From an uncultured virus (IMG/VR IMGVR_UViG_2850925934_000001) (taxonomy: Duplodnaviria; Heunggongvirae; Uroviricota; Caudoviricetes), in the IMG/VR virus record IMGVR_UViG_2850925934_000001, positions 1 to 64,000 of that record: 64,000 bases of DNA; one strand, given 5' to 3'. Below, one piece after another: positions 1,290 to 40,663 of this stretch. A program made the translations under genes and the position numbers. The first letter of the stretch is position 1; each line of letters starts with the position of its first letter. Under the pieces are notes generated by a model. The model searched no databases, was not told the DNA's origin, and saw only the letters and a list, made by a program, of their open reading frames with translations.

Positions 1290-1742
1290 ATGTTGCCGCA
1301 AATGAGAATTAACGGAGCAGCAGCCGAACTTTTCGTAAAAGGCGACTTGTTGCTAAAGAATTACGTACCTTTCGAACCGGAGATAGACAATACAGAATGT
1401 GATATCGCGATTATTCAAGACGGAAAGCTTGTACGCATCCAAGTAAAGAGCGCTCGCTCAGAAGATCTTGAAAAGGTTAAGTTCGACTTAACGCGTTCAA
1501 GCGCATCCAGTCGCTTTTATACGAAAGATGATTTCGACGTGTTAGCGCTATACGATTTCGCAACCAATAAGATTGCATATATCGATTGGCAAAGCATAAC
1601 GCATAAACGAAGTATTACGTTGAGGTACACAGATACTCACTGTAAGAATGGATTCGTTGGAGAGAATGGTCGACTGTTCTTTGATGATTATCGAGAGTTT
1701 CCGCAGATTATACGAGGTGTATCGAAGGAGGAGTCCGCATGA
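1290..1742 (+). CDS. PD-(D/E)XK endonuclease (group I intron-associated PDDEXK_5-like)
   Basis: G-x-AAE...DIAI...RIQVKS...Y...DFDVLALYD pattern; RBS AAGGAGG. Confidence 0.75.
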   Translation: MLPQMRINGAAAELFVKGDLLLKNYVPFEPEIDNTECDIAIIQDGKLVRIQVKSARSEDLEKVKFDLTRSSASSRFYTKDDFDVLALYDFATNKIAYIDWQSITHKRSITLRYTDTHCKNGFVGENGRLFFDDYREFPQIIRGVSKEESA

Positions 1743-2188
1743 ATAGCAGAGGAATGATCGGATATGCTTCAGAAAGACTAGTAGAATCAGATTTACTTTT
1801 CCAAGGTATTGTTGTTTTGAATCCGAGCCAACCGGATTTAGAGTACGATTTGGTTGCGCAAATTGGAAATGAAAATTTCAAAATACAGGTTAAAACAGGA
1901 AAGCGGAAAGACGGCAAGGTTCTTGTAGCGGACATTAGAAAATCAGCAAGCCCACGTAACCCATATAAAAAACTTCACTATACAAAAGACGATGTAGACA
2001 TTTTTGCGATTACAGATCCGGAAACGAGAAGGGTAGCCTATTATCCTTCGGGAGAGGTAAGTCGAGAAATAACCTTTCGTTTTGAAAAGAGAAAATGCAG
2101 AAACGGGTATGCTGAGAGGTTGTTCAACGATTTTACAGATATTAAAGTCGCTATAGAAAAACTATCTTCATTACAGAGAATATCCTAG
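1739..2188 (+). CDS. Second PD-(D/E)XK endonuclease, paralog of the upstream ORF
   Basis: GYASE...YDLVA...KIQVKT...YTKDDVDIFAI; ATGA overlap with previous gene. Confidence 0.75.
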   Translation: MNSRGMIGYASERLVESDLLFQGIVVLNPSQPDLEYDLVAQIGNENFKIQVKTGKRKDGKVLVADIRKSASPRNPYKKLHYTKDDVDIFAITDPETRRVAYYPSGEVSREITFRFEKRKCRNGYAERLFNDFTDIKVAIEKLSSLQRIS

Positions 2189-9504: not shown

Positions 9505-10521
9505 TTGCCGATATTAACTTTGAATGGACGTTTTGTAGACGTCGACATTCGGTATGAGCTCGAACAATTCGACTGGACTCGGCCGACGTGGGGCGATGAA
9601 CGCCTGCTGGCCGCCAGTCCATTCAGATACGATCGGACTCCGAGCTTTTACGTATACCTCGAAGACACAGTGTCGGCAAAAGCCGGCTATTGGGGCGACT
9701 CAGGCGCTTATGACGAAGAATTTGCGCGGGGCGGGTTCGTTAAACTGCTCGCTTTCCTGCGCAACGAAACCGAAGACGACGCAATCGATTACTTATTGGA
9801 AACGTATGCACCGGCGGCTGAAGGCGGACGTATGGCGCTTCGACTCCCGAAATTAAAGCCCGTCACGAAGCCGGAGCCTTTGCCGGAATCGGTCCTCGTA
9901 GAAACAACGCCGGGACCTAACGCTTATCTGACGGGACGGGGCATTGCGGAGGCGGTACAAGAGGCGGCTGGTGTAGCGCTTGCGGGAAATGCAGTCGCGA
10001 TTCCTTGGCGGCTTCCTAACGGGCGGCTGGCTAACGTAAAGTATAGGGCAACGAAGGGGAAGGCATTCTGGTACGTAAAAGGCGGCATGCCTATCCGGTA
10101 CTTAGTTTACGGAATGGATCTCGTATATGCGCAGCGGCTTAAAAGCGCGGTGATATGCGAGGCGGAGATCGATGCTATGGCGTGGCGATCAGCGGGCATA
10201 CCGGCGATCGGAACCGGCGGCAGCACATTTAATTTACAGAAGGCGGACATAATTGCGCAGGCACCTATCGAATATTTAACGGTGGTTACAGATAACGACA
10301 AAGCTGGCGAAAAGTTACGGCTGGAGATCGAGCGTTATTTGATCGGAAAGGTGCGGCTTGCGCACGGTTATATAACGGAGGTGAAGGACGCTAATGAGCT
10401 ATTGGTGAAGCGCGGTACAGAGGCATTGCGAGGCGTTTATGATCGTGCGGAGGTCGTGAGGAATACGTGGACTCTCGGGTTCGGGAATTCCCGTACTTTA
10501 GGTCGGCGGAGGTTGTCTTAA
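9505..10521 (+). CDS. DNA primase (TOPRIM)
   Basis: ICEAEID, TDNDKAG, KDANE; degenerate Zn-finger SPFRYDRTPSF. Confidence 0.9.
   Translation: MPILTLNGRFVDVDIRYELEQFDWTRPTWGDERLLAASPFRYDRTPSFYVYLEDTVSAKAGYWGDSGAYDEEFARGGFVKLLAFLRNETEDDAIDYLLETYAPAAEGGRMALRLPKLKPVTKPEPLPESVLVETTPGPNAYLTGRGIAEAVQEAAGVALAGNAVAIPWRLPNGRLANVKYRATKGKAFWYVKGGMPIRYLVYGMDLVYAQRLKSAVICEAEIDAMAWRSAGIPAIGTGGSTFNLQKADIIAQAPIEYLTVVTDNDKAGEKLRLEIERYLIGKVRLAHGYITEVKDANELLVKRGTEALRGVYDRAEVVRNTWTLGFGNSRTLGRRRLS
10479..10499. promoter_or_regulatory. Palindrome GTTCGGGAATTCCCGTAC (copy of the 41081 site)
   Basis: 1 mismatch to perfect palindrome at 41081-41100. Confidence 0.55.
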
Positions 10522-10763
10522 CCCTCCGTGTTGCTGTCGGATACCTCGATCCATTCGTACAAGTCTTCGGGTGCGCAGCTGAGCATCATTGCGATATTGT
10601 AGGTTCGTTCGATGCTCGGCAGGTTCCGAAGCCTGACGTAATCGGACATTTGCGTTTTTGATACTCCGACCATTGCTGCGAGCTGACTAAGACTAATTCC
10701 GCGTTTCTTGCATAGTTCGGGTATCCGACATTTGCCGACCTTAAACGTAACAAACACCTCCAT
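10518..10763 (-). CDS. XRE-family HTH regulator (resembles SPbeta YopS from memory), divergent from aimR
   Basis: ISLSQLAAMVGVSKTQMSDY...PSIERTYNIAMMLSCAPEDLY; exact start uncertain. Confidence 0.85.
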   Translation of the reverse strand: MEVFVTFKVGKCRIPELCKKRGISLSQLAAMVGVSKTQMSDYVRLRNLPSIERTYNIAMMLSCAPEDLYEWIEVSDSNTEG

Positions 10764-10824
10764 TCGTAAAGGTGTCCAGTATATTTTATATTATCGCTTA
10801 AACAAAAACTACCGAAAATTATTA

Positions 10825-10854
10825 TTGACATATCGATAATGCAATAATTATAAT
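10825..10854 (+). promoter_or_regulatory. SigA promoter of aimR
   Basis: TTGACA-18 bp-TATAAT, perfect hexamers. Confidence 0.8.
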
Positions 10855-10912
10855 TGAGTTAGTTAAAAGTTGCTGATCGAATTTAAATAGATAATCAAGG
10901 AGGTAGGCTCAC

Positions 10913-12139
10913 TTGGAATACATCACAAAAATGGTGCATGATTTTATTGAAGACCACGATGACATAAAAAAGACGGATGTTATGGAGTTTGTTGGAATGA
11001 GTGAAAGTGCATATAGGGATTTTTTCAAGAAAGGCAAAATAAGTTTCAAGAAACTTATTAAATTCGCTCAACTGATTTCAAGAGAAACAGGAAAGGGAAG
11101 TCAGGAAATTTTATCAGAATGGTGTTTGCATATCACCCGGACAGAAACAATAAAAAATTCATTTGAATACTCCGCAATTACTACAAACGCTCCTCTTTTA
11201 AAAAGATTATTACTACTTCATCAAAATACTGACGGAGTTCTTAAACAGACGGTGGAAGTGTACCGTATTGTTTATAACTATATGGTAGGAACGTTGAGTG
11301 GTTTTGAACTGAAGGATGCAATAGGAAGACTCCACAATATAACAAGTAAACCACTTTTGATTTTAATGAATATCATTCGACAGTATAACAACTATTTTGA
11401 AGGTGACATACAAAAAATAATAAATGAAGTCTCGGAAATCCAGAAGGATATAACAAACCTAGGGCCGCGAGAAACCTTTTATAAAGAATGCTTAACGTTC
11501 AGGGTCTGTGAATTATTGGCGCCTATTAGTTTGCAACTTAATGATGTAAAATCTGCTCGGGATTTTGCTGAATCCATTATTAATGCAAATATATCCGCGA
11601 AAAAGAAATCTGATGCATATTATGTTATAGGGATGTCGTACTTACCGGATGATAAAAATGTCTGTTTGTATAATCTCCGGAAAAGTTACGAGTTAATGCG
11701 TGAAGTGGGCGATTTGCAGTATATCCAAGAGGCAAAGTTCAATTTAGATTTCGCTAAAGTCTTTCATGGCGTCGAGCTTGATGAAGACTCTAACTTCAGA
11801 CTGAGAGCATATCAGAAAGCGAGAAATGGGAAAATTTCTTTAGCGAAGTTACATACGATATTAGAGAGGGGCGATAAAGACAATTTTATAATATTTTTCG
11901 AAAACACAGCGGAAAAGTCAATGGATGTAATGTATAATTGCCTAGAGTCTTTTTTCTGTCAAGAAAACTTCTTTTTCGCTAGGTTAGTAGCGAAAGAGCT
12001 TGAGAAAGCAGGAGCTGACTCACGAGCGCTTAGACCATTCCTAAAATTCAAAAAATTAATTAAAGGAGAGGTTTTAATTGAAAAAGATATTATTAGCCAC
12101 TTTAATCGTAGTGATGGCGGCAGCAGGATTTGCATTTAA
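10913..12139 (+). CDS. aimR: Arbitrium receptor AimR (RRNPP family, HTH + TPR)
   Basis: 408 aa; N-terminal HTH, IKNSFEY, AYYVIGMSYL, FFFARL motifs; directly followed by a signal-peptide gene ending in -GA. Confidence 0.9.
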   Translation: MEYITKMVHDFIEDHDDIKKTDVMEFVGMSESAYRDFFKKGKISFKKLIKFAQLISRETGKGSQEILSEWCLHITRTETIKNSFEYSAITTNAPLLKRLLLLHQNTDGVLKQTVEVYRIVYNYMVGTLSGFELKDAIGRLHNITSKPLLILMNIIRQYNNYFEGDIQKIINEVSEIQKDITNLGPRETFYKECLTFRVCELLAPISLQLNDVKSARDFAESIINANISAKKKSDAYYVIGMSYLPDDKNVCLYNLRKSYELMREVGDLQYIQEAKFNLDFAKVFHGVELDEDSNFRLRAYQKARNGKISLAKLHTILERGDKDNFIIFFENTAEKSMDVMYNCLESFFCQENFFFARLVAKELEKAGADSRALRPFLKFKKLIKGEVLIEKDIISHFNRSDGGSRICI

Positions 12140-12209
12140 ATATGATACACAGAATCAAGCTAGTACCGAAGGAGGATATAAGGTAGCCGACATTCGGGTT
12201 GGCGCTTAA
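12078..12209 (+). CDS. aimP: Arbitrium pro-peptide AimP, MKKILLATLIVVMAAAGFAFKYDTQNQASTEGGYKVADIRVGA; predicted mature peptide DIRVGA
   Basis: TTG start after AAAGGAGAG; Sec signal peptide; VA processing site then hexapeptide at C terminus; not in ORF track. Confidence 0.92.
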   Translation: MKKILLATLIVVMAAAGFAFKYDTQNQASTEGGYKVADIRVGA

Positions 12210-24040: not shown

Positions 24041-24409
24041 ATGCTGATCGCTTACTACTCGCTAACCGGCAACGTCCGCCGATTCGTCGCTAAGACCGGT
24101 CTGGCCGCCGTCGAAATTAAGCCGGGCCTGATGATCGCCGAGCCGTTCGTATGCGTGACCGGTACGTACGGTTTCGGTCAGGTCGCCGGCACAGTTTCGG
24201 ATTTCCTTGCGGATAACAGCGAATATCTTGCGGCCGTAGCTACGTCGGGAAATCGTAACTGGGGCGATAACTTCGGAAAGGCGGCCGATGTGATTGCAGC
24301 GCAATACGACGTGCCGATAGTCGGGCGCTTTGAACTGGCGGGCACGGACGCAGAGGTACGACAATTTATTGAAAGGGTGAATGCGCATGACGAATTACAT
24401 CGAACTTAA
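24041..24409 (+). CDS. nrdI: Class Ib RNR flavodoxin NrdI
   Basis: YYSLTGNVRRF, TYGFG, SGNRNWG. Confidence 0.95.
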   Translation: MLIAYYSLTGNVRRFVAKTGLAAVEIKPGLMIAEPFVCVTGTYGFGQVAGTVSDFLADNSEYLAAVATSGNRNWGDNFGKAADVIAAQYDVPIVGRFELAGTDAEVRQFIERVNAHDELHRT

Positions 24410-25094
24410 TAACGAAATTATGATACAGAAGGACGGCCGGTTCCAATTCGAAAAGGATATCGAAGCCGTCCGCGCTTATTTTATTGACTACGTAAATCAA
24501 AACACCGTATTTTTCCACGACCTTCGCGAAAAGCTCGACTATCTACGCGATAACGATTACTACGAAACCGAATTCCTGAACGCCTATACGTTCGATGAAA
24601 TCAAGTCGGTCTATCAGGCGGCTTATGCGCATAAGTTCCGTTTCCCATCGTTCATGAGCGCGTTCAAATTCTACAACGACTATGCGCTGAAGACGAACGA
24701 TCAGAAAAAAATCCTCGAACGCTACGAAGACAGGGTCGCTTGCTGTGCGCTATTCTTCGCGGGAGGAGACGCAACCAAGGCGATCGAGTACGTAAATCTG
24801 ATGATGCGTCAGGAATATCAGCCGTCAACGCCGACGTTCTTAAATGCGGGCCGGAAACGACGGGGCGAATTAGTTTCGTGTTTCTTGCTCGAAGTTAACG
24901 ATTCCCTTAACGATATCAGTCGCGCGATTGATATTTCGATGCAGCTCTCGAAGCTTGGCGGCGGCGTGTCCCTTAATTTATCGAAACTCAGAGCGAAAGG
25001 CGAAGCGATTAAAGACGTAGAGAACGCGACAAAAGGCGTTGTAGGCGTAATGAAACTGCTGGACCATGCGTTCAGATATGCGGATCAGATGGGT
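24387..25094 (+). CDS. nrdE: Ribonucleotide reductase alpha subunit, exon 1
   Basis: YIELNNEI...PSTPTFLNAG...SCFLL...YADQMG; continues QRQGSG in exon 2. Confidence 0.95.
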
Positions 25095-26034
25095 TAAATT
25101 GGCCCCTTTCGTCAGTAATGGCGATCGAAAACCTCTTTAATTCATGGGAACTCCTCGAAGCGGTAGGGCCACAAACTACTAAAGGAGGACAATCATGAGC
25201 GAAGCAAGACGAAAACCTCACAACAAATTGGAGATAGATGAAGATTTTATTCGCGAAAATTACCACAAGATGAGTGCTAGAGAGATCGGTGAGATATTAG
25301 GAGTGTCTAGGGAAGCGATTAACCATCGAGTTATGCGCATGGGTCTCAGGAAGACAAAGATACCTTTTGAATTACAAAATGGTGAAGAACTAAAACCAAT
25401 AAACGGGGTACCTGAATACGGAATTACCAGCCTAAGCCGCGTGGTTAACTTGAGAACAATGACCGAAGTAAAACCTAAGATTGACGGATCAGGCTATTTA
25501 AAGGTAGTCCTCTTTCGAAACAAGGTTCGATTCGAGAGGAATGTTCATCGATTGGTTGCGCTGCATTTTATTCCTAATCCTAAGAACTTACCGATGGTTA
25601 ATCATATTGACGGAAACAAAGCAAACGCCGATATCAAAAACCTAGAATGGGTAACTCCGAAAGAGAATGCGCAACATGCATCAAGAACGGGTCTTTTGCG
25701 GAAAGGAGCGCGTCATCCAGCATCAAAAATCACTGAGGAACAAGCGCGGGAAATACTTTCGGATTATCGCAGCGGCCTCTCACTCAACGAGGTTCGGATT
25801 AAGCACTCATACGCGAGTAAGTCTATCGTAGATAAAATCTGTTGTAGGCAACGGTGGAATCATTTGGACCAAACGTCTTGAACGTGCAACGACTAGCCGA
25901 AAGGCGTAGGCCGCAAGCGATTGGCGGTCGAAACGGGAGGCGCCCCAAGCGGGCGAAGATATAGTCTAATCTTCGTGGTAACACGGAGCAGCCGGAAGGC
26001 GGGGCGTGCCTAGCGAACACGTCCGAATGGTCTG
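25095..26034 (+). mobile_element. Group I intron in nrdE (940 nt) carrying an HNH homing endonuclease
   Basis: Exon ends in U (GGT|), intron ends in G (TCTG|CAA); P element AATTCATGGGAA, R GACTAG, S AAGATATAGTCT; splicing restores QMG-QRQGSG and a 703-aa NrdE. Confidence 0.93.
25195..25881 (+). CDS. Intron-encoded NUMOD4/HNH homing endonuclease
   Basis: GYLKV...VHRLVA...VNHIDGNKANA...NLEW..EN. Confidence 0.9.
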   Translation: MSEARRKPHNKLEIDEDFIRENYHKMSAREIGEILGVSREAINHRVMRMGLRKTKIPFELQNGEELKPINGVPEYGITSLSRVVNLRTMTEVKPKIDGSGYLKVVLFRNKVRFERNVHRLVALHFIPNPKNLPMVNHIDGNKANADIKNLEWVTPKENAQHASRTGLLRKGARHPASKITEEQAREILSDYRSGLSLNEVRIKHSYASKSIVDKICCRQRWNHLDQTS

Positions 26035-27438
26035 CAAAGACAAGGATCAGGCGCAGCGTACCTTAACGTATTCCATGCGGACATTAACGATTTCTTAGAT
26101 ACGAAGAAAATCTCGGCAGATGAAGACGTACGTGTTAAAACGTTATCCATCGGCGTTGTTATTCCGGATAAATTCATCGAACTGGCGCGAGAGAATCGGC
26201 CGGCTTACGTATTCTACCCGCACACCGTTTATAAAGCGTACGGCCAGCATTTAGACGAAATGGATATCGGAGAGATGTACGATCAGCTCGTCGACAATCC
26301 GGCCGTCCGTAAAGACAAAATCGACGCGCGTAAGCTCCTCGAAAAGCTAGCCGTACTGCGTTCCGAATCGGGCTATCCGTACATTATGTTCGAAGGCAAC
26401 GTAAACGCGGCACATGCGAACAGTCACGTATCGAAGGTTAAATTTTCGAATCTGTGCTCGGAGGTTCTTCAGGCGTCGCAAGTATCGGAATACACCGACT
26501 ACGGCGAAGAAGACGAAATCGGCCTTGATATTTCGTGTAATCTCGGATCGCTAAACGTTGCAAACGTAATGAAAAACGGAGACTTCGAAACGATCGTTAA
26601 GCTTTCCGTTGATGCTCTAACGCGAGTCTCGGAAACTTCGAATATCAAGAACGCACCAGCTGTTGCGCGAGCTAACCGCGAGATGCGTTCGATCGGACTT
26701 GGCGCGATGAATTTGCACGGTTATTTAGCGCAGAACGGTATAGCTTATGAATCGGAAGAAGCACGTGATTTCGCTAACGTATTCTTCGCGCTTGTGAACT
26801 ATTGGTCGCTTGTGCGGTCGATGGAGCTCGCAAAAGAAACCGGAAGCACATACGAAGGATTCGAGGAATCGACGTATGCGAACGGTGAATATTTCTTTAA
26901 ATACGCGTATGTTGACGAACAAGAAGGCGAAGGTCTCGATTGTTTTCCGAAGACGGAGAAAGTTAAAGCGCTGTTTAAAGACGTATGGATTCCGGACGGT
27001 CTCGACTGGCATCACCTCGAATTGGACGTTCGCGAATACGGACTTTACCATTCGTACAGACTCGCGATTGCGCCAACGGGATCAATTTCGTATGTGCAGT
27101 CGGCTACGGCGTCAGTCATGCCGATTATGGAACGGATCGAGGAGCGTACGTACGGCAATTCGAAAACGTATTATCCGATGCCGGGGTTATCGCCGCAGAA
27201 TTGGTTTTTCTACAAGGAAGCGTACGACATGGATATGTTTAAAGTCGTCGATATGATCGCAACGATTCAGCAGCACGTCGACCAAGGCATCTCATTTACG
27301 CTGTTCTTGAAAGATACGATGACGACGCGCGATCTGAACCGGATTGACCTATACGCGCATCATCGGGGCATCAAAACGCTGTATTATGCGCGGACAAAGG
27401 ATACCGGTCAGGATTCGTGCTTGAGTTGCGTTGTTTAA
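26035..27438 (+). CDS. nrdE: Ribonucleotide reductase alpha subunit, exon 2
   Basis: QRQGSGAAYL...FSNLCSE...SCNLGS...APTGSIS...KTLYY...CLSCVV. Confidence 0.95.
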   Translation, partial: QRQGSGAAYLNVFHADINDFLDTKKISADEDVRVKTLSIGVVIPDKFIELARENRPAYVFYPHTVYKAYGQHLDEMDIGEMYDQLVDNPAVRKDKIDARKLLEKLAVLRSESGYPYIMFEGNVNAAHANSHVSKVKFSNLCSEVLQASQVSEYTDYGEEDEIGLDISCNLGSLNVANVMKNGDFETIVKLSVDALTRVSETSNIKNAPAVARANREMRSIGLGAMNLHGYLAQNGIAYESEEARDFANVFFALVNYWSLVRSMELAKETGSTYEGFEESTYANGEYFFKYAYVDEQEGEGLDCFPKTEKVKALFKDVWIPDGLDWHHLELDVREYGLYHSYRLAIAPTGSISYVQSATASVMPIMERIEERTYGNSKTYYPMPGLSPQNWFFYKEAYDMDMFKVVDMIATIQQHVDQGISFTLFLKDTMTTRDLNRIDLYAHHRGIKTLYYARTKDTGQDSCLSCVV

Positions 27439-28662: not shown

Positions 28663-28821
28663 ATGAAACGATTTATCAGCGCCACGGCAACGGTCATCGC
28701 CGGACTGCTCTTCGTCCTTCCGTACATTCATACGATAGGGTTCCGGTGGTTTTCGGTAGTAGCCGTGTTCGCCTTGATTGCGATATTAACAAGCGAAAGC
28801 ACGAAGGAGGAAACGAAATGA
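28663..28821 (+). CDS. 52-aa membrane protein
   Basis: RBS GAGGAGG; two hydrophobic segments; ATGA overlap with dut. Confidence 0.6.
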   Translation: MKRFISATATVIAGLLFVLPYIHTIGFRWFSVVAVFALIAILTSESTKEETK

Positions 28822-29366
28822 ACGTAAATATTAAACGGCTATCACCGGACGCACAGATTCCGGCTTATGCACACGCAACGGACGCTGGCTTCGATTTAGT
28901 GGCGGCAGAGGACGTTATTATCGAACCGGGCGAGACGGCGTGTGTGCCGACGGGCTTGGCGTTTGAGATTCCGGAGGGTTACGAAATGCAAATCCGGCCA
29001 CGATCGGGCATTACGCTGAAGACGTCTTTACGCGTGCAGCTCGGAACTGTAGACGCGGGCTATCGCGGAGAGGTCGGAGTGATCGTCGATAATATTGCGC
29101 AGAAGGTAGTGCTAGGACTCGATCTTAACCAACAAGCGATCGAATACAGCGAGATCACTTCGCCGGAAGTCATTAGCGGTTCATTAGAGAACGAATGGGA
29201 TTACTTCGGATATTATCCGAACGATACGTACATCATCCGCAAAGGCGATCGTATTGGGCAAGGGGTAATTAAACCGGTCGAGCAAGTTGAGTTTGTGGAA
29301 GTTTGTGATCTTAGCGAATCTGACAGAGGTGATGGTGGATTTGGCAGCAGCGGAGCGTCCGTATAA
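28818..29366 (+). CDS. dut: Trimeric dUTPase with phage-specific insertion
   Basis: AGFDL, RPRSG, GTVDAGYRGE, GDRIGQ, RGDGGFGSSG. Confidence 0.95.
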   Translation: MNVNIKRLSPDAQIPAYAHATDAGFDLVAAEDVIIEPGETACVPTGLAFEIPEGYEMQIRPRSGITLKTSLRVQLGTVDAGYRGEVGVIVDNIAQKVVLGLDLNQQAIEYSEITSPEVISGSLENEWDYFGYYPNDTYIIRKGDRIGQGVIKPVEQVEFVEVCDLSESDRGDGGFGSSGASV

Positions 29367-29847
29367 AGAGCTAAGTTTATCTAATGGCGGAATATGTTTA
29401 GTCAGCGAAGAGGACTTCGATAGTTTGAGTAAATATAAATGGCACAGGAGGAGTTCCGATGGATATGCGGCTCGCACTGTGTATAATGCTGGTAAATTCA
29501 AAACTATTCGAATGCACCGGGAGATTATGCGCCCTCCGAAGGGATTTGTTGTAGATCACATTAACCGAGACAGATTAGACAATCGAAGGGATAACCTTAG
29601 AATCGCTACCACAAGCCAAAATATTGCTAACTCGGTAAAACCTTCTACCAACTCGTCCGGCTATAAGGGAGTACAGTACCGAAAAGACCAAGGAAGATGG
29701 AGATCGTGTATATGAGTAAACAAAAAGCCCATCTCTTTAGGGCAGTATGATTCAGCAGAAAAGGCGGCACAAGCATATAATGAGGCCGCAATAAAGTATT
29801 TTGGAGAGTACGCAAGACTGAATGATCTCCCTAAGGAGGACGCTTAG
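29335..29847 (+). pseudogene. Freestanding HNH-AP2 endonuclease with in-frame TGA at 29713-29715
   Basis: VDHINRDRLDNRRDNLR HNH, then SGYKGV..WRSCI*VNKKPISLGQYDSAEKAAQAYNEAAIKYFGEYA in the same frame; start approximate. Confidence 0.85.
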
Positions 29848-35158: not shown

Positions 35159-35639
35159 AACGATTTTGCACGAAACGATTACGGAAATGTACACACGCAC
35201 TAAGGCCGGCAAGATGACACGGCAGGAGCGAATTGAGGCAATAACGGCCTTGTCGGACGCTTACTTCGATTCTACCGGAGAGCATCCGGAGCCGTCAGCG
35301 CTTGAGCGAATGGCTAATCTCGTACTTTACGAAGAATTGTCCGACACTCATGCCGATAAAGTATCCCGGGAAGAGTACCCGATCATGAGCGAAACGCAAT
35401 TTGACGAGAGATATAAACGTGAAGCTTCGGACAAACTGGCGGAGGAATACGACCAAACCGGCTCTTATAAAGGCCGACCGATACGCAGGCCACGCTCTTC
35501 TTACGAAAATAAATTACTCGATAGGCGCGCCAAGGCACGTAATGAAGGGCGGAGAAAACGTTATTCGGCATTCGTTAATGGAAGGTCGGACGGCCAGTTC
35601 ACCGTAAATATCGCTACCGGCGAAAAAGTTTATCACTGA
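35151..35639 (+). CDS. Hypothetical protein coupled to the sigma-like gene
   Basis: LERMANLVLYEEL...EEYPIMSETQ. Confidence 0.7.
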   Translation: MDKTILHETITEMYTRTKAGKMTRQERIEAITALSDAYFDSTGEHPEPSALERMANLVLYEELSDTHADKVSREEYPIMSETQFDERYKREASDKLAEEYDQTGSYKGRPIRRPRSSYENKLLDRRAKARNEGRRKRYSAFVNGRSDGQFTVNIATGEKVYH

Positions 35640-35650
35640 TACCTATATTT

Positions 35651-35676
35651 TATCGCGTTAGTTGTCTATACGTTAT
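35651..35676 (+). promoter_or_regulatory. Candidate late promoter copy 1 (TATCGCGTTAGTTGTCTATACGTTAT)
   Basis: 22/26 identical to 42530-42555. Confidence 0.55.
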
Positions 35677-35726
35677 GAGGGCGCCAATTCAGCGCTCTTT
35701 TATTTTGCGAAAAAGGAGACGATTTA

Positions 35727-36527
35727 ATGAAGAGATTACGAGTTATTAATACGGAAACAGGCGAAGACTGGTCGGAAAGGTACACGCTGCGGCACCGCAA
35801 CCAAGACGATGCCTTTCGCCAGCAACAAGAAAAGACGGCTGATCGGCGCGATTTCTCAAACGCCAATATGTCTAATATTCACGAAGTCTATGACGCTCTT
35901 ACGACTGCACAGTGCGGCTACCTGATGCTGCTACAGTGCTACGTCGACTATAACGGTGTTCTTATCAAATCCAGCCGCAACAAAACGCCGATGACCACTG
36001 CTGACATGCTGGACGTTTTGCAGCTCGTTAAAAAACCTCGGTCCTTTTACGACTTCCTTTCCGCCTGTACCGCGCATGACATTATCCGGGAAGAGGACGG
36101 CCGCTACAGCGTAAATGAGCGCTATCACTTCAAAGGTAATTTCGGTAGCCAGCAAGTCGTCAAGCTTTACAGCGCGAAGATTAAACGTGTGTACAGCGAA
36201 GTGAAGGCGACGGACATCGGACTGATCTACCGGATGCTGCCGTTCATTCATTACGAAACAAACGCTTTATGCGAAAATCCTTTCGAAAAGAATCCGAAGT
36301 GCATCCGTTGGTTCAATAAGAAGGAGCTTGCGGCGGCGATCGGCGTTACTTCGGATACACTTGGCCGGCGCCTGAAGCAAATGAAATTCGACGGCGAATA
36401 CGTTGTTGCGCGCATTAAAGTCGGAAGCGAGCCGGAGCGCTATACGTTTAATCCCAACGTATTCTATCGACAATCCAAGACGCCGGACAAAACGCTGATT
36501 GCGCTGTTCAACGTTAAGAAGGTATAA
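35727..36527 (+). CDS. Tandem winged-helix protein, plasmid Rep-like
   Basis: Two wHTH units ending YSVNERY and YTFNPNVF. Confidence 0.6.
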   Translation: MKRLRVINTETGEDWSERYTLRHRNQDDAFRQQQEKTADRRDFSNANMSNIHEVYDALTTAQCGYLMLLQCYVDYNGVLIKSSRNKTPMTTADMLDVLQLVKKPRSFYDFLSACTAHDIIREEDGRYSVNERYHFKGNFGSQQVVKLYSAKIKRVYSEVKATDIGLIYRMLPFIHYETNALCENPFEKNPKCIRWFNKKELAAAIGVTSDTLGRRLKQMKFDGEYVVARIKVGSEPERYTFNPNVFYRQSKTPDKTLIALFNVKKV

Positions 36528-36528
36528 T
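36499..36528 (+). promoter_or_regulatory. SigA-like promoter for the arbitrium mini-gene
   Basis: TTGCGC-18 bp-TATAAT. Confidence 0.6.
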
Positions 36529-36552
36529 TTTACTATATCGGAGGTGAGACGA

Positions 36553-36639
36553 ATGGGAGAGATCAAACTGGGAGCTAATCCATTAGAAAGCGCGATCAGA
36601 GGCGCGGGGCCGGCGGAGAGCGCATCACGCGGAGCATAA
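36553..36639 (+). CDS. 28-aa tandem arbitrium-like peptide MGEIKLGANPLESAIRGAGPAESASRGA
   Basis: RBS GGAGGTGA, ATG 36553, TAA 36637-36639; contains SAIRGA, SASRGA and EIKLGA; no signal peptide. Confidence 0.85.
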   Translation: MGEIKLGANPLESAIRGAGPAESASRGA

Positions 36640-36643
36640 AACG

Positions 36644-36677
36644 AAAAAGGACGCCTTATCCGGGCGTCTTTATTTTT
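36644..36677. terminator. Bidirectional terminator
   Basis: AAAAAGGACGCC-ttatccg-GGCGTCTTTATTTTT between convergent genes. Confidence 0.8.
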
Positions 36678-36681
36678 GCGT

Positions 36682-36861
36682 TTAAATATTCTTTTTCATC
36701 CCGCATCGCCGGCACTCCCGAAGAAACTTTCCGCTCTTCACCGAGCTTTTGAACAGCGTATAGTCGCAGTTATCACATCGTCCTGCGCGCTTATCCGGAA
36801 ATTCCTTGTATTCGTAAGTGATCGACGTATCGATGCCGTTAGTCTCGTATTTTTCCTCCAT
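36682..36861 (-). CDS. 59-aa Zn-ribbon protein
   Basis: MEEKYETNG...CDNC...CRRCG; RBS GGAGG; extended -10 TGGTATAAT. Confidence 0.7.
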   Translation of the reverse strand: MEEKYETNGIDTSITYEYKEFPDKRAGRCDNCDYTLFKSSVKSGKFLRECRRCGMKKNI

Positions 36862-36991
36862 TTTCGCTGTACCTCCGTGTCCTACATCGTTGTATAGAAC
36901 GATTATACCACGAAATTACAGCAAGAGAGCCGCCTCAGACGCGTTCAGGTACGATAGGTATCCGAAAGCTCGAAACGGCTCATTTCGTTCA

Positions 36992-37429
36992 TTATTTAAC
37001 GTTGAATTTCGCTGACTCAAACGTGCCGACGTATTTGCGCTTTCCCGAATCCGAATAGCAGTCGATCTGGATAACGTATGTGCCTTTGCCTGTCTTGCTG
37101 CGGATCGACTTCGCACTAAACGACTTCAGCGGCGTTGCCGTTTTGAAGCTTCCGCGTTGCAACAAGCCGGTATCGGTCAGTCCGCCGCCGCTCCGCTTTT
37201 TATAAACGCCTGCCGTGTAATACAGCGTGGTGGCGCCTTTCTTTTCGGCTTTCCAGTCGACTGTGCTTGCGCTACTGCTGTACGTAGTAGCGTCCGTATA
37301 AACGCGCGCTTTGTGTCCGAACTTCTCCGTCTGCCAACCCGACCATGCCGCGTCAGCTTGCGGAGTCAACGCAATAGTGCCGGTTAATAAGGTTGCGGCG
37401 ATTACAAGCGATTTGACTAAACGTTTCAT
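36992..37429 (-). CDS. Secreted basic protein (145 aa)
   Basis: Signal peptide MKRLVKSLVIAATLLTGTIALTPQADA; RBS GAGGAGG. Confidence 0.8.
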   Translation of the reverse strand: MKRLVKSLVIAATLLTGTIALTPQADAAWSGWQTEKFGHKARVYTDATTYSSSASTVDWKAEKKGATTLYYTAGVYKKRSGGGLTDTGLLQRGSFKTATPLKSFSAKSIRSKTGKGTYVIQIDCYSDSGKRKYVGTFESAKFNVK

Positions 37430-37542
37430 ACGATTTCCTCCTCGACTTCCAGCCGCGTACCACACGTAGGGCAGCACGCGTCCGGCTTGATCTCGATATC
37501 TAACTTTGCGTAATTACAATCGTGGCAAGTGTATTCAATCAT
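37426..37542 (-). CDS. 38-aa Zn-ribbon peptide
   Basis: MIEYTCHDC...CPTCG; coupled to both neighbours. Confidence 0.6.
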   Translation of the reverse strand: MIEYTCHDCNYAKLDIEIKPDACCPTCGTRLEVEEEIV

Positions 37543-37738
37543 CGTTCTGGCTCTCCGTCTCCTTTTCGATACGATATCCGAAATATTGCATTAGCGTATT
37601 GATCCCGATTTGGTAAGCGCGCCCGCATCGACCGAAATTGGCGGCGGGGCGCACGTATAATTCGAGGATCTGTGCTTCCTGCTGCGGTGTTAATGCCGGT
37701 ACATCCGGCCATACTTTACGGATCATAAGCTGTTCCAT
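37535..37738 (-). CDS. Hypothetical protein
   Basis: RBS GGAGG. Confidence 0.6.
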   Translation of the reverse strand: MEQLMIRKVWPDVPALTPQQEAQILELYVRPAANFGRCGRAYQIGINTLMQYFGYRIEKETESQNDD

Positions 37739-37742
37739 ATCG

Positions 37743-37832
37743 TTATCGCCTCCGTTTTAGTGCTACGACAAGACCCGCGATTGCTACGATCAGGGCCGCC
37801 GCCGTAATGCCGATGGTTAATACCGTTAACAT
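37743..37832 (-). CDS. 29-aa hydrophobic peptide MLTVLTIGITAAALIVAIAGLVVALKRRR
   Basis: RBS AAGGAGG; single TM + basic tail. Confidence 0.65.
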   Translation of the reverse strand: MLTVLTIGITAAALIVAIAGLVVALKRRR

Positions 37833-37926
37833 GGCGCGCTCGCCTCCTTGTGTTTGCATTTTGGTTACGGTACTATAAGAGACACGGGGCGGACTCTCCA
37901 ATCAACCCCGTATCAATGTTCTGGCG

Positions 37927-38040
37927 CTAGTCGTTTTTGCGATTAGCGTTTTTTGCGTTAACGCAGGCGGTTGCCAAATTCGTTACCGCAATGACGAAGT
38001 TTACTATCGCCGTTATAATTAGTACCGTTTCCGCGTTCAA
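37927..38040 (-). CDS. 37-aa hydrophobic peptide MNAETVLIITAIVNFVIAVTNLATACVNAKNANRKND
   Basis: RBS AAAGGAGGG; TTG start; first gene after the 38096 promoter. Confidence 0.65.
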   Translation of the reverse strand: MNAETVLIITAIVNFVIAVTNLATACVNAKNANRKND

Positions 38041-38067
38041 TCGTTTTTCCCTCCTTTCTATAATTCT

Positions 38068-38096
38068 ACTATACGATATCGTATAACGTAAGTCAA
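38068..38096 (-). promoter_or_regulatory. Promoter TTGACT-17-TATAGT with palindromic operator TATACGATATCGTATA
   Basis: Perfect 16-bp palindrome 38070-38085 overlapping the -10. Confidence 0.75.
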
Positions 38097-38099
38097 CAG

Positions 38100-39866
38100 T
38101 TAAATTGAAATATTATTCGTTTCTATATCGGTTTGATTAAGCGATAGGGTGCCGGCTATCTTATTTCCGATGACCCGCGAATTAATAGAATCGGAAGTCT
38201 TAATCGGATTGTACAGCCCGAAAGAGTTAGCCGAATACACAACGTTTTCCTTCACGAGCGCACCGTCGGTGTTTTTCGTTTGAATCCCGTAACCGCCGGA
38301 AGCCTTCCGGTTAAACGTTATGTCATTGCCGGAAATTTCAGGTTTCTTACCGCCGACGACGTAAATCGGTATCAGACATTTCGCGTCAGTGATGTCGTTG
38401 TTCTTAATGCGGACGGTTCGACCTTCTGCGCTTTCTCCGTAAATAGCCATGTTTGCCGGTTTTGGTATACGGCTGTATTCGATATCCACGTCGCTTCCCT
38501 TATCGAAAGATATAGCGTATCCTGTTGCGCCAGAGTAGTCGGTAAGATCAATATCGTTATCTATCAGTTTCGCCGAAGACCGCGTAACTACGACGCCTTG
38601 CTTACTGCGTTTAACGTCGTTCGATTTCGCTTTAACGTTAATGGAATCGGCAATCTCTATCGCAGCAATATCCGAATCGTGGAGATCGTTACCTTCGAAC
38701 GTTATATCTTTTGAGTTACGCGCACTACATAATTTACCCGGACAATGGTTTACGATGTTATCCGAAAACTTAACGTTCTTGGCTTCGAAGGTAGCCAATG
38801 CGGTGCCGTCCGCGCTAAGCTCCGAAATTGTATTGCCGGATACTGAAACGTCTGCTCCGCGAACGTCAATGCCGCTGCTGAAGCCTTTTATCGTATTTCC
38901 GGTGATCGTCGTGTTATTTCCGGTAAAGCCAGCCGACACGCCAAGGCTCGTAATTGCGGTATATTTCTTGTCCGTGCGTACTAACGTATTATTCGAGATA
39001 GTGGTGTCGGTTCCGAATCCGTAAGAGATCGAGTTATCCGAATAGTTTCCGGAAATAACGACCTCGTATCCGCTGAAGTTACACACGGACTGTAGTACAT
39101 TGCCTGCGAAAGTATTATTCGTTATCTTCACATTGCGAGGCTCTTCGTAATCGATATTGCCTTCTCCGTAACCTTCGATATCAATGCCGAACATAGGCTT
39201 ACATCCATCGTTTATACCTGCGTTAGTTATTACGTTTTTATCGATCTTTACATCTTCGCCACCAGTGACCGATATATTGTTTCGGCGAGCACCGTCTAAT
39301 TTACAACGCTCAATCGTAACGTTGCGGGCAGGTCGGTAAGTCGTCCAAGGTACATTTAACATGCCTTGCGCGTTAACCATAATACAGTCGCCTGTACAAT
39401 CCGCAATATCTACGCCCTCGATCAGGACATTCTTGGCGCCATGTACGTTTATACCGTATCCCCATTCGTGTGTTTCTTTCTTTACGCGGTCGCCATGTCC
39501 GGTAAAGTCGTGCTGATAACGTTCGCCGCGTATCTTACCGCCTTTTATCGCCACATTTTCGACTTCTCCGATATAGAAGCACGTATAGCCAAACGAGCTA
39601 TTCGGCTCGACACGGAATTCGGCTTCCGGGTGCAAATTCAACGTCATGTTGGACGGAACGATAATGCCTGCGCGTTCTTCCGGCTTATTGACGGAATTTT
39701 TATTAACCCCGTCAATCAAGTACACGCCACGCGGTATATCAACCTCGCAAATGCCCGCCTCTGATGCGTCCTTAAGCGCTTGATTAAATCCTGCCGTAGT
39801 CACTGCCGCCGCATTTCCATCGCTACAAATACCGTATTTTTCAGTTTCCAACGTATATCGCATCAT
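38100..39866 (-). CDS. Right-handed beta-helix (pectate-lyase-like) protein
   Basis: KYGICSDG...IPRGVYLI, many PbH1-type repeats; size and position next to the PGA hydrolase recall SPbeta yorA. Confidence 0.85.
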   Translation of the reverse strand: MMRYTLETEKYGICSDGNAAAVTTAGFNQALKDASEAGICEVDIPRGVYLIDGVNKNSVNKPEERAGIIVPSNMTLNLHPEAEFRVEPNSSFGYTCFYIGEVENVAIKGGKIRGERYQHDFTGHGDRVKKETHEWGYGINVHGAKNVLIEGVDIADCTGDCIMVNAQGMLNVPWTTYRPARNVTIERCKLDGARRNNISVTGGEDVKIDKNVITNAGINDGCKPMFGIDIEGYGEGNIDYEEPRNVKITNNTFAGNVLQSVCNFSGYEVVISGNYSDNSISYGFGTDTTISNNTLVRTDKKYTAITSLGVSAGFTGNNTTITGNTIKGFSSGIDVRGADVSVSGNTISELSADGTALATFEAKNVKFSDNIVNHCPGKLCSARNSKDITFEGNDLHDSDIAAIEIADSINVKAKSNDVKRSKQGVVVTRSSAKLIDNDIDLTDYSGATGYAISFDKGSDVDIEYSRIPKPANMAIYGESAEGRTVRIKNNDITDAKCLIPIYVVGGKKPEISGNDITFNRKASGGYGIQTKNTDGALVKENVVYSANSFGLYNPIKTSDSINSRVIGNKIAGTLSLNQTDIETNNISI

Positions 39867-40663
39867 TATTCGTTACCTCCAACGTTATAGTTTTCGTTAA
39901 TGAACTCCGACATCAACCCGGTAAACTTGTAGAACTTCTCGGTTTCGGTTCCGGCGCGTCCGTTAAGCGAGAACTTACCGAACATGCTTTTACGCAAACC
40001 GGTACTGAGCTCGATCTGTAGGCTTTCGCCGGTCATGCACTTATTCGCTATGTTCGCGCTACTTTCGCCTGCGAATCGATGTCCAGCGCCTACGAGTTCG
40101 GCACTGAAGCCGGCAGCGTTCAAGCGATTTACTAGCGTCTGGCCGCGAACAGGATCGGTGCCGCCTACGATAATGTGCTCGGTGCTGTCGCTGTATCCGT
40201 GAAGCGATATAACGCGTTGGTGTCGGGCGGTCATATCTAGCGCGGTTGGCTCGTCGAAATGGGTACTCGTGATGTGAAGGTCGAATCCGTTGGAGGTCTT
40301 GAGTGATTCGAATAGATACGTAGAATAGTCGTTGCTGAGTTCGCGGGATAATTCGCTAGTTCCGCCTTCAATACTGCCGCCGTGCGGCGCGAGTATCAAA
40401 ACGGGCGTGGCGTGGTCGGTCGCGAATATATTGTAGTTCGTCTCGGGTTCGTTGGCTTGGAGTTCGGCAAAGTTGCGGTAAACATCGGTGGCTTGCACGG
40501 TGACTGAAGTGAATGCGGATAACATTGCGCATAGAATAAACGCTGTGATATACTGGAAGTGCTTCGTTCGATTCGGACGGTGCAGCTTTGCTTTGGTCGG
40601 TGGGGCTGCGCCTCCGTTTCGTTCTCTAATCGCCTTATTCAGTTTTCGTGGATCATTAATCAT
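39866..40663 (-). CDS. Poly-gamma-glutamate hydrolase (PghP family) with N-terminal hydrophobic segment
   Basis: APHGGSIEGGTSE, LHITSTHFDEP, SLHGY, QIELS. Confidence 0.92.
   Translation of the reverse strand: MINDPRKLNKAIRERNGGAAPPTKAKLHRPNRTKHFQYITAFILCAMLSAFTSVTVQATDVYRNFAELQANEPETNYNIFATDHATPVLILAPHGGSIEGGTSELSRELSNDYSTYLFESLKTSNGFDLHITSTHFDEPTALDMTARHQRVISLHGYSDSTEHIIVGGTDPVRGQTLVNRLNAAGFSAELVGAGHRFAGESSANIANKCMTGESLQIELSTGLRKSMFGKFSLNGRAGTETEKFYKFTGLMSEFINENYNVGGNE

What the first reader, a model, noticed from the sequence alone, without database searches (positions are those of the whole stretch)
36499..36677. Orphan mini-gene encoding three tandem arbitrium-like peptides (EIKLGA, SAIRGA, SASRGA): candidate signal mimic against rival phages
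Seen: a self-contained unit of promoter (TTGCGC-18-TATAAT), RBS GGAGGTGA, a 28-codon ORF MG-EIKLGA-NPLE-SAIRGA-GPAE-SASRGA-stop, and a terminator. The hexapeptides recur at an exact 10-aa period with xP(L/A)E linkers, and the two SAxRGA units use different codons. There is no signal peptide and no neighbouring aimR, and none of the peptides equals this phage's own predicted DIRVGA. Established: SAIRGA is the phi3T arbitrium peptide, which inactivates AimR and favours lysogeny. SASRGA is, as I recall, another SPbeta-group variant. Inference: the product stays in the cytoplasm and, whole or cleaved after Glu, occupies AimR receptors of superinfecting or co-resident phages. That would keep them lysogenic or dormant without export and re-import. 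EIKLGA may target relatives of this phage's own AimR clade. I do not know of a description of such a multivalent mimic.
Basis: partly seen in the sequence, partly recalled or inferred. Interest (0 to 1): 0.96.

Follow-up and report, generated by a model that had tools for sequence, protein, structure and literature searches.

The report
Phage gene forging rival phages' signals
A tiny gene in a Bacillus prophage encodes, with no export signal, a string of communication peptides used by other phages and not its own, so it probably tricks rival phages into dormancy.

Summary
A 28-codon ORF (36553-36639) with a strong RBS sits between a conserved gene and its terminator. It carries three six-residue units, two of which are exactly the published arbitrium signals SAIRGA and SASRGA.

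The closest isolated phages lack the 112 bases precisely. At least 21 related IMG/VR proviruses, 3 Bacillus genomes and 1 metagenome contig carry 16 alleles of 17-39 codons at the same site.
- All length changes are in frame.
- Window versus one allele: 8 synonymous and 0 non-synonymous differences in 22 codons.
- By my parsing, 37 of 46 units equal natural mature AimP peptides. None equals the carrier's own AimP (0 of 13 records).
- Two complete carriers have no AimR.
- Codons differ from phi3T's aimP at 6 of 6 positions.

My reading is a leaderless, multivalent pro-peptide that forges rival phages' signals. I think release at lysis with outside maturation is more likely than action inside the cell. 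Expression, processing and effect are all untested. Five full-text searches found no description.

The parts
35727..36527 (+). Upstream gene (266 aa, PHROG 9501, unknown function; annotated as a DNA-binding protein in relatives). The mini-gene sits directly behind its stop codon.
   Evidence: There is no terminator between this gene and the mini-gene.
36528..36639 (+). 112-base cassette, absent from the closest isolated phages. It consists of a leader, the RBS and the ORF.
   Evidence: In 268TH007, phi18-2 and L040 the stop codon abuts the terminator with a gap of 0. In the window the gap is 112 bases.
36523..36528 (+). -10-like TATAAT, overlapping the upstream stop codon (36525-36527). A weak -35 TTGCGC lies at 36499-36504.
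   Evidence: Read. It is conserved in all cassette-bearing loci, including three with a different upstream gene, where it reads as an extended -10, TGGTATAAT. The promoter scan did not list it.
36540..36547 (+). Ribosome-binding site GGAGGTGA.
   Evidence: It is conserved in the 16 alleles, which were found by a search that required it.
36553..36639 (+). 28-codon ORF plus stop, a leaderless multi-signal pro-peptide. Met-Gly 36553-36558; unit 1 36559-36576; linker 36577-36588; unit 2 (SAIRGA) 36589-36606; linker 36607-36618; unit 3 (SASRGA) 36619-36636.
   Evidence: Coding selection is shown.
36647..36677 (.). Bidirectional intrinsic terminator, shared with the convergent minus-strand gene at 36682-36861.
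   Evidence: It is present unchanged in relatives that lack the cassette.
10913..12209 (+). The phage's own arbitrium module for comparison: aimR (10913-12139) and aimP (12078-12209, ending in DIRVGA).

Best explanation
The mini-gene is a real, translated accessory gene of a family of 65-70 kb temperate Bacillus phages. Its product is a leaderless pro-peptide made only of other phages' arbitrium signals joined by short proline-containing linkers.

Shown:
- It is an insertion.
- It is conserved as a coding sequence.
- Its units are mostly exact copies, at protein level only, of natural mature AimP peptides. These come from SPbeta-like (clade 2) phages and from a second phage group.
- It never carries the carrier's own signal.

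Inferred mechanism:
1. The peptide is made in the infected or induced cell. Methionine aminopeptidase removes Met1, which exposes Gly2. In 8 of the 16 alleles Gly2 is already the first residue of a known signal.
2. The peptide is set free when the phage lyses the cell.
3. The host's extracellular proteases cut it into hexapeptides, as they do with secreted pro-AimP and with tandem Phr pro-peptides.
4. Neighbouring cells import the hexapeptides through Opp.
5. There they bind the AimR of rival phages and shut off aimX. The rivals then lysogenise early or stay dormant, which leaves hosts and cell resources to the emitter.

I put about 0.8 on the core claim that this is a heterospecific signal aimed at rivals. 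I put about 0.45 on this particular route (lysis, then outside maturation).
For: Insertion
- The stop codon abuts the terminator in 268TH007, phi18-2 and L040. The window has 112 extra bases.

Recurrence
- 18 of 55 loci fetched by the upstream gene carry a mini-gene.
- 21 of 27 RBS-pattern hits in IMG/VR are arrays.
- 3 of 49 Bacillus species genomes carry one, as does 1 of 4 metagenome hits.
- In 3 loci the cassette follows a different upstream gene, with the same junction.

Coding selection
- 16 alleles of 17, 20, 21, 23, 24, 27, 28, 29, 35 and 39 codons are all open and all in frame.
- 11 alignment columns are invariant in residue but vary in codon, including the Arg-Gly-Ala cores and the Pro-Leu-Glu linker.
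- Window versus the L010 allele: 8 synonymous and 0 non-synonymous differences in 22 codons, rough P of 2.6e-5.

Identity of the units (parsed by eye)
- 37 of 46 units, and 9 of 16 unit types, equal natural mature peptides. The comparators were Table S2 of PMC13220667 and my survey of 64 AimR loci.
- The SAIRGA unit differs from phi3T's own aimP at 6 of 6 codons, and the flanking residues differ too. The likeness is therefore held at peptide level.

Not for self
- 0 of 13 records that hold both an array and an own AimP have that AimP in the array.
- Two records rated 100% complete carry the array but no AimR.

Shared hosts
- The array with GFTVGA and GFPRGA occurs in B. glycinifermentans GO-13. 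Natural systems with these two signals are listed from the B. licheniformis group.
- In 3 of 7 genomes with a co-resident clade-2 system, that system's signal is in the array.

Plausibility of the steps
- Non-cognate or foreign arbitrium peptides drive receiving phages into lysogeny and benefit the emitter (10.1101/2025.10.13.681967, sections read; PMC13220667, abstract).
- Extracellular proteases release internal and C-terminal pheromones from tandem Phr pro-peptides (PMC11343458, section read).
- Natural secreted AimPs with two tandem mature units exist: L281, L282 and L285.
Against: - Nothing here shows translation, processing, release or any effect on a rival.
- There is no signal peptide, so release rests on lysis, which is inferred.
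- Natural pro-AimPs are cut after Ala. Array units are preceded by Glu, Tyr, the Ala of the preceding unit, or Met-Gly, so the same proteases need not serve.
- 9 of 46 units matched no natural peptide in my two limited comparison sets. These include the window's first unit, which also keeps an extra N-terminal Gly.
- The commonest clade-2 signal, GFGRGA (56 of 281), is in no array, although it is co-resident in two carrier genomes.
- The co-resident signal is in the array in only 3 of 7 genomes.
- RNA evidence is weak. Contigs from two RNA-seq libraries of one study cover the stretch, but contigs show neither strand nor transcript.
Confidence: 0.45

Rival explanations
1. Same product and same targets, but it works inside the producing cell. 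The peptide is trimmed in the cytoplasm. Without export and re-import it occupies the AimR of a co-resident or superinfecting rival. That keeps the rival prophage from inducing, or forces an incoming rival into lysogeny.
For: - No signal peptide occurs in any of the 16 alleles.
- Met-Gly at the start of all 16 alleles means that cytoplasmic Met removal alone creates the exact N-terminus of the first signal in 8 of them (established property of methionine aminopeptidase, recalled).
- The last unit already has the free carboxyl end.
- The two phage families do share single host genomes: seven ID-prefix or genome cases.
- Arbitrium controls prophage induction (PMC8612738, seen in a search listing only).
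- A lysogen's signal raised lysogeny of a superinfecting cross-talking phage tenfold (preprint section read).
Against: - AimR binds both free ends of the hexapeptide, so at least one endoproteolytic cut per unit is required. I know of no cytoplasmic protease with Glu- or Tyr-specific cleavage of this kind in Bacillus (recalled, not searched).
- Linkers conserved at residue level argue for a specific protease, and the well-known candidates are extracellular.
Confidence: 0.27
2. The peptides are aimed at the bacterium, not at rival phages. They would alter host development, for example sporulation or colony behaviour, to the phage's advantage.
For: A 2026 preprint reports that SAIRGA itself changes B. 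subtilis colony development and promotes sporulation (10.64898/2026.08.23.746533; title and start of abstract seen in the listing).
Against: - The arrays vary exactly at the receptor-specificity positions.
- They switch between many different natural phage signals, and they match the signals circulating in the host group.
- This pattern fits many phage receptors better than one host sensor.
Confidence: 0.07
3. It serves the carrier's own communication. It would be either a second ligand source for its own AimR through cross-talk, or a store of spare specificities for switching its arbitrium system.
For: - Arbitrium modules are exchanged among these phages. The same array occurs with different own AimPs (L010 versus L011).
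Against: - Own signals are of other types in 13 of 13 records (ending in VGA, VGG, PGG, IGG or LGG).
- Two complete carriers have no AimR.
- A store of specificities would not need an RBS or purifying selection on the linkers.
Confidence: 0.05
4. It is not a functional gene. It would be a decaying remnant of aimP ends, or a non-coding leader or terminator element.
For: - It is unannotated and very short.
- It lies in a variable junction between convergent transcription units. Relatives seen in RNA contigs carry a 1462-base insertion ten bases further on.
Against: - 16 of 16 alleles are intact, with in-frame length changes only.
- The synonymous excess argues for translation.
- Codons and flanks are unlike natural aimP.
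- There is no Rfam match.
Confidence: 0.03

Closest known systems
Canonical AimP of the arbitrium system (phi3T, SPbeta and relatives)
   Same: - Ends in a six-residue signal with the Arg-Gly-Ala or Gly-Ala core.
- Two units are letter for letter the published signals of phi3T-type and SASRGA-type systems.
   Different: - Not next to aimR.
- No signal peptide.
- Several different signals in one product.
- None is the carrier's own.
- Codons and pro-region are unrelated to natural aimP.
Tandemly duplicated RRNPP pro-peptides: Phr of phages phi3T and phi105 (PMC11343458), and the natural tandem AimPs seen here (L281, L282, L285)
   Same: - More than one pheromone unit sits in one precursor.
- Internal units must be freed by cuts on both sides. 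Extracellular proteases do this for Phr.
   Different: - Those precursors are secreted through a signal peptide.
- They lie beside their receptor.
- Their units address that one receptor.
- Here the units are signals of different, foreign receptors.
Arbitrium cross-talk and manipulation between phages (10.1101/2025.10.13.681967; PMC13220667)
   Same: The proposed effect and benefit are the same: a foreign peptide makes the receiving phage lysogenise early or stay dormant, to the emitter's gain.
   Different: - There the manipulating signal is the emitter's own AimP acting through imperfect receptor specificity.
- Neither text contains 'orphan', 'decoy' or 'mimic'. 'Tandem' occurs once, only in a cited Phr title.
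- Here a separate gene carries exact copies of several rivals' signals.
Leaderless RRNPP-type peptide signals (SIP of the RopB system in Streptococcus pyogenes)
   Same: A short signalling peptide is translated without a secretion leader.
   Different: - That one is a single cognate signal next to its receptor.
- I know it from recall and from a title in a reference list. It was not examined here.
Phage morons (accessory cassettes inserted between conserved genes)
   Same: A precise insertion between a gene and its terminator, patchy among close relatives, lying in a variable junction.
   Different: Whether it has a promoter of its own is unresolved, and the terminator is borrowed.

Membership tests
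aimP (canonical arbitrium signal gene) | Lies immediately downstream of aimR and is co-oriented with it | tested here: not met
   The only AimR is at 10913-12139, with its own aimP at 12078-12209. The mini-gene lies 24 kb away.
aimP (canonical arbitrium signal gene) | Pre-pro-peptide of about 40-50 residues with an N-terminal Sec signal peptide | tested here: not met
   The product is 28 residues with no hydrophobic segment. The natural AimPs recovered here start with Met and basic residues followed by a hydrophobic stretch, but my search filter required that.
aimP (canonical arbitrium signal gene) | Mature six-residue signal at the extreme C-terminus, ending in Gly-Ala or Gly-Gly | tested here: met
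   The last six residues are SASRGA, followed by the stop codon. 15 of 16 alleles end in Gly-Ala.
aimP (canonical arbitrium signal gene) | The signal is cognate to the AimR of the same element | tested here: not met
   By sequence only: the own AimP is absent from the array in 13 of 13 records, and two complete carriers lack AimR. Binding could not be tested.
Tandemly duplicated RRNPP pro-peptide | Two or more pheromone units in one precursor | tested here: met
   2 to 4 units per allele.
Tandemly duplicated RRNPP pro-peptide | Exported by a signal peptide, then matured by extracellular proteases | tested here: not met
   There is no signal peptide. Maturation is not testable with these tools.
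Tandemly duplicated RRNPP pro-peptide | The units serve the adjacent cognate receptor | tested here: not met
   There is no adjacent receptor. The units are published signals of different receptors.
Phage moron | Discrete insertion between conserved genes, absent from close relatives | tested here: met
   Gap of 0 versus 112 bases at the same junction.
Phage moron | Own promoter and own terminator | tested here: inconclusive
   The -10 TATAAT is conserved in all carriers and reads as an extended -10 in three loci with another upstream gene. In the window the -35 is weak and the scan did not list the site. The terminator pre-exists in relatives that lack the cassette.

The most novel reading that the evidence does not exclude
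Some temperate phages carry a dedicated signal-forgery gene. It is a leaderless polyprotein built only of exact copies of several rival phages' communication peptides. Its units are reshuffled rapidly to track whichever arbitrium dialects circulate in the host population. It is used to push competitors into dormancy. If so, this would be the first gene known whose sole product is other viruses' signals, and direct genomic evidence of an arms race over viral communication.
Probability: 0.7. Interest if true: 0.95.

Novelty: new variant of a known kind. Interest (0 to 1): 0.9.

Why it matters
Arbitrium is the model for communication between viruses. Work from 2025-2026 showed that phages can be misled by each other's peptides, but only as a side effect of imperfect receptor specificity.

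A separate gene that emits exact copies of up to four foreign signals, and never its own, would show that manipulation is itself a selected trait. It would also give a selective reason for the fast diversification and exchange of AimR-AimP pairs.

The arrays offer a natural read-out of which phage families compete in which hosts. The B. licheniformis-group signals occur in a B. glycinifermentans carrier. The other arrays carry the signals published for SPbeta-, phi3T- and Goe11-type phages of B. subtilis, though I did not identify their hosts.

The question is directly testable in standard B. subtilis strains with phi3T and SPbeta reporters. The design, a compact leaderless multi-signal peptide, is also a ready tool for steering lysis-lysogeny decisions in the laboratory.

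Tried and rejected
tblastn of the 28-mer against isolated phages found nothing. The isolated phages that match this region lack the cassette.
Among the rows printed it gave only B. glycinifermentans GO-13. I replaced it with a genus-wide search of 49 Bacillus genomes.
- The metagenome scan gave 1 true array in 4 hits.
- A context-free scan for an ORF starting with Met plus the SPbeta signal gave 81 stretches. Only 8 were arrays, all in contigs already known. Most of the rest were one unrelated conserved protein. I therefore found no second genomic context beyond the two upstream genes.
- Two raw-read RNA runs with the same species label laid no reads, so they are no test.
- There was no Rfam family in the window or at the locus.
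- A blastn for the natural ELNPGA-type AimR locus among isolated phages found nothing.
- Read-through from the upstream gene is rejected because the mini-ORF is in another frame (826 bases apart).
- The 46-residue TTG-start form is unlikely. It has no RBS, and its upstream part is not conserved as a start in loci with another upstream gene.

Full report
**What is there**

The window is 64 kb of a 70,239-base IMG/VR provirus. It has an integrase, replication and nucleotide-metabolism genes, one AimR (10913-12139), and structural genes further on. Its closest isolated relatives are Bacillus subtilis phages 268TH007 and 268TH002 (82% identity over 97% of a 4.6 kb query) and phi18-2.

At 36553-36639 there is a 28-codon ORF. 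It is preceded by GGAGGTGA five bases upstream and followed by a bidirectional hairpin terminator. The product is MGEIKLGANPLESAIRGAGPAESASRGA. This parses as Met-Gly, then three six-residue units at a period of ten, separated by two four-residue linkers.

The phage's own AimP lies 24 kb away, has a normal signal peptide, and ends in DIRVGA. The TATAAT overlaps the stop codon of the upstream gene, the -35 matches 3 of 6, and the scan did not list the site.

**The units are real signals**

SAIRGA is the phi3T signal; I read it from phi3T's own aimP. SASRGA is the second most common clade-2 signal (42 of 281 systems) in Table S2 of Gallego-del-Sol et al., Cell 2026 (PMC13220667; supplement read, passages). 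It is also used as a natural signal in Manley et al. 2025 (bioRxiv 10.1101/2025.10.13.681967; passages).

**It is an insertion**

In 268TH007, phi18-2 and IMG/VR locus L040 the stop codon of the upstream gene is followed at once by the terminator. In the window 112 bases lie between them. The terminator is therefore older than the cassette. The cassette can be transcribed with the upstream 266-residue gene (PHROG 9501, function unknown), because no terminator separates them.

**Relatives carry a variable array at the same site**

- Of 55 IMG/VR loci fetched by the upstream protein, 18 hold a mini-gene behind it.
- An RBS-pattern scan found arrays in 21 of 27 hits.
- 3 of 49 Bacillus species genomes have one, among them B. 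glycinifermentans GO-13.
- 1 of 4 metagenome hits is an array.
- In three loci (L083, L084, L104) the cassette follows a different upstream gene. The junction is the same, and the -10 there reads as an extended -10.

Together there are 16 distinct alleles of 17 to 39 codons with 2 to 4 units. Among the eleven phages whose upstream protein is at least 95% identical (the window plus L005-L014), I count ten different arrays.

**It is selected as a coding sequence**

- All length differences are multiples of three, and all 16 alleles are open.
- Eleven alignment columns keep the residue while the codon varies, including the Arg-Gly-Ala cores and the Pro-Leu-Glu linker. Residue changes concentrate in the first three positions of the units, which are the specificity positions of arbitrium peptides (PMC6458997, passage).
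- Between the window and the L010 allele, the last 22 codons differ at 8 codons, all synonymous. With 27% synonymous sites this gives a rough P of 2.6e-5.
- No Rfam family matches.

**What the units are**

I parsed the 16 alleles by eye into 46 units of 16 types.

37 units (9 types) equal natural mature peptides.
- Eight types are in the clade-2 table: the signals of SPbeta, phi3T and Goe11, plus SASRGA, SIIRGA, SPSRGA, GFTVGA and GFPRGA.
- One, ELNPGA, is the C-terminus of natural AimPs in 4 of the 64 AimR loci I surveyed.

Nine units (7 types) matched nothing in these two limited sets. Among them are the window's first unit and its close variants. These resemble the natural EISPGA and ELNPGA group but carry an extra Gly after the initiator Met.

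The likeness is at peptide level only. The window's SAIRGA unit differs from phi3T's aimP at 6 of 6 codons, and the residues before it differ as well. The units are therefore not recent DNA copies of aimP ends.

**Not for the carrier's own ears**

In 13 records that hold both an array and an own aimR-aimP, the own signals were of five types (ending in VGA, VGG, PGG, IGG or LGG). None of them is in its array. Two records rated 100% complete have the array but no AimR hit.

**Shared hosts**

- The allele with GFTVGA and GFPRGA occurs in B. glycinifermentans. Natural systems with these two signals are listed from B. sonorensis, glycinifermentans, paralicheniformis, haynesii and licheniformis.
- In GO-13 the co-resident clade-2 system uses GFPRGA.
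- In two genome-ID prefixes with this allele, a 129-173 kb provirus uses GFTVGA.
- In four other genomes the co-resident clade-2 signal is not in the array. It is GFGRGA twice, SIIRGA once, and SAIRGA once beside a disrupted aimR.
- So 3 of 7 match. The arrays follow the signals of the host group rather than strictly those of the cell-mate.
- GFGRGA is the commonest clade-2 signal and occurs in no array. Where I saw it co-resident with carriers, it belongs to a short 320-residue AimR on 28-60 kb records and on one 95 kb record.

**How it most likely works**

The target and the benefit have experimental precedent.
- Foreign peptides made phi3T-type phages lysogenise early.
- They reduced induction.
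- They favoured the emitter (sections read; abstract).

The whole 28-mer is unlikely to be the ligand. AimR grips the free amino end (Q299, E300) and the free carboxylate (R228) of the hexapeptide (Table S4). Cleavage is therefore required.

Met-Gly in all 16 alleles means that Met removal alone gives the exact first residue of the first signal in 8 alleles. The stop codon gives the free carboxylate of the last unit.

The linkers end in Glu or Tyr, or the next unit follows directly on Gly-Ala. The known Bacillus proteases that mature pheromone precursors are extracellular, and they free internal units too. Natural secreted AimPs with two tandem units, whose linkers end in Phe or Tyr, exist (L281, L282, L285).

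With no leader, the simplest way out is the phage's own lysis. I therefore favour release at lysis and maturation outside (about 0.45) over trimming and action inside the producing cell (about 0.27). Only the anatomy speaks to this choice.

**Expression**

Contigs assembled from two RNA-seq libraries of one organism and one study cover 35500-36671 at about 94% identity with no length change. In one library a contig of depth 91 begins at 35738, next to a contig of depth 3.5 that covers the bases upstream. This is compatible with transcription of the upstream gene plus cassette. However, contigs show neither strand nor transcript ends, and DNA carry-over cannot be excluded. Two raw-read runs laid nothing and are no test.

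**Novelty**

Five full-text searches found no paper describing an orphan, leaderless or multi-signal arbitrium peptide gene. They covered the peptide names, the phage names, and words such as orphan aimP, AimP-like, leaderless, decoy, jamming, concatenated, signal mimicry and peptide repeats.

The two cross-talk papers do not contain 'orphan', 'decoy' or 'mimic'. 'Tandem' occurs once, only in a cited Phr title. Subscription-only papers and the preprint's supplements were not visible to me. The scan's own index held nothing on this DNA.

I file it as a new variant of a known kind. The signals and receptors are those of arbitrium. The gene's architecture and apparent purpose are new.

Noticed in passing
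window 10001-12000 (aimR-aimP at 10913-12209): The arbitrium module has a much lower G+C (0.41) than the rest of the phage (about 0.50). Phages with near-identical flanks and even the same array carry different AimR-AimP types, for example L010 versus L011. The module therefore looks freely exchanged.
   Followed up: partly
window 24381-27438: The ribonucleotide reductase large-subunit gene is in two pieces (24381-25097 and 26260-27438), with an HNH endonuclease ORF (25195-25881) between them. This looks like a homing-endonuclease or intron-type interruption. No Rfam intron family reached threshold.
   Followed up: no
window 28746-29715: A dUTPase gene (28746-29366) is overlapped and followed by a second HNH endonuclease ORF (29287-29715).
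   Followed up: no
L281, L282, L285 (IMG/VR loci, AimP ORFs near position 1620-1650): These natural, signal-peptide-bearing AimPs carry two tandem copies of their mature unit, separated by 4-5 residue linkers ending in Phe or Tyr. I did not find tandem AimPs mentioned in the passages I read.
   Followed up: no
L429 3865-6587 (record G078, 2.5 kb beyond its cassette): A phi3T-like aimR is split by a 372-residue transposase-like ORF, while its aimP (SAIRGA) stays intact. It lies in the same provirus record as a cassette whose array lacks that signal.
   Followed up: partly
L396-L404, L063, L233: Systems using the commonest clade-2 signal (GFGRGA) seen beside carriers have a short 320-residue AimR. 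They sit on 28-60 kb records and on one 95 kb record. This signal is in none of the 16 arrays.
   Followed up: no
window 36682-40663, minus strand: A convergent block encodes small proteins, a secreted-looking 161-residue protein, a 588-residue beta-helix protein that matches tail-spike families, and a poly-gamma-glutamate hydrolase. Relatives seen in RNA contigs have a 1462-base insertion at 36671/36681. This junction is a hot spot for accessory genes.
   Followed up: no
L034 and L036 (same genome-ID prefix), with L386: One host genome appears to hold two members of this phage family, each carrying the same array. It also holds a 173 kb provirus whose natural AimP equals the array's first unit.
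   Followed up: partly
window 1290-2188: Two adjacent paralogous PD-(D/E)XK endonuclease-family ORFs lie next to the integrase.
   Followed up: no
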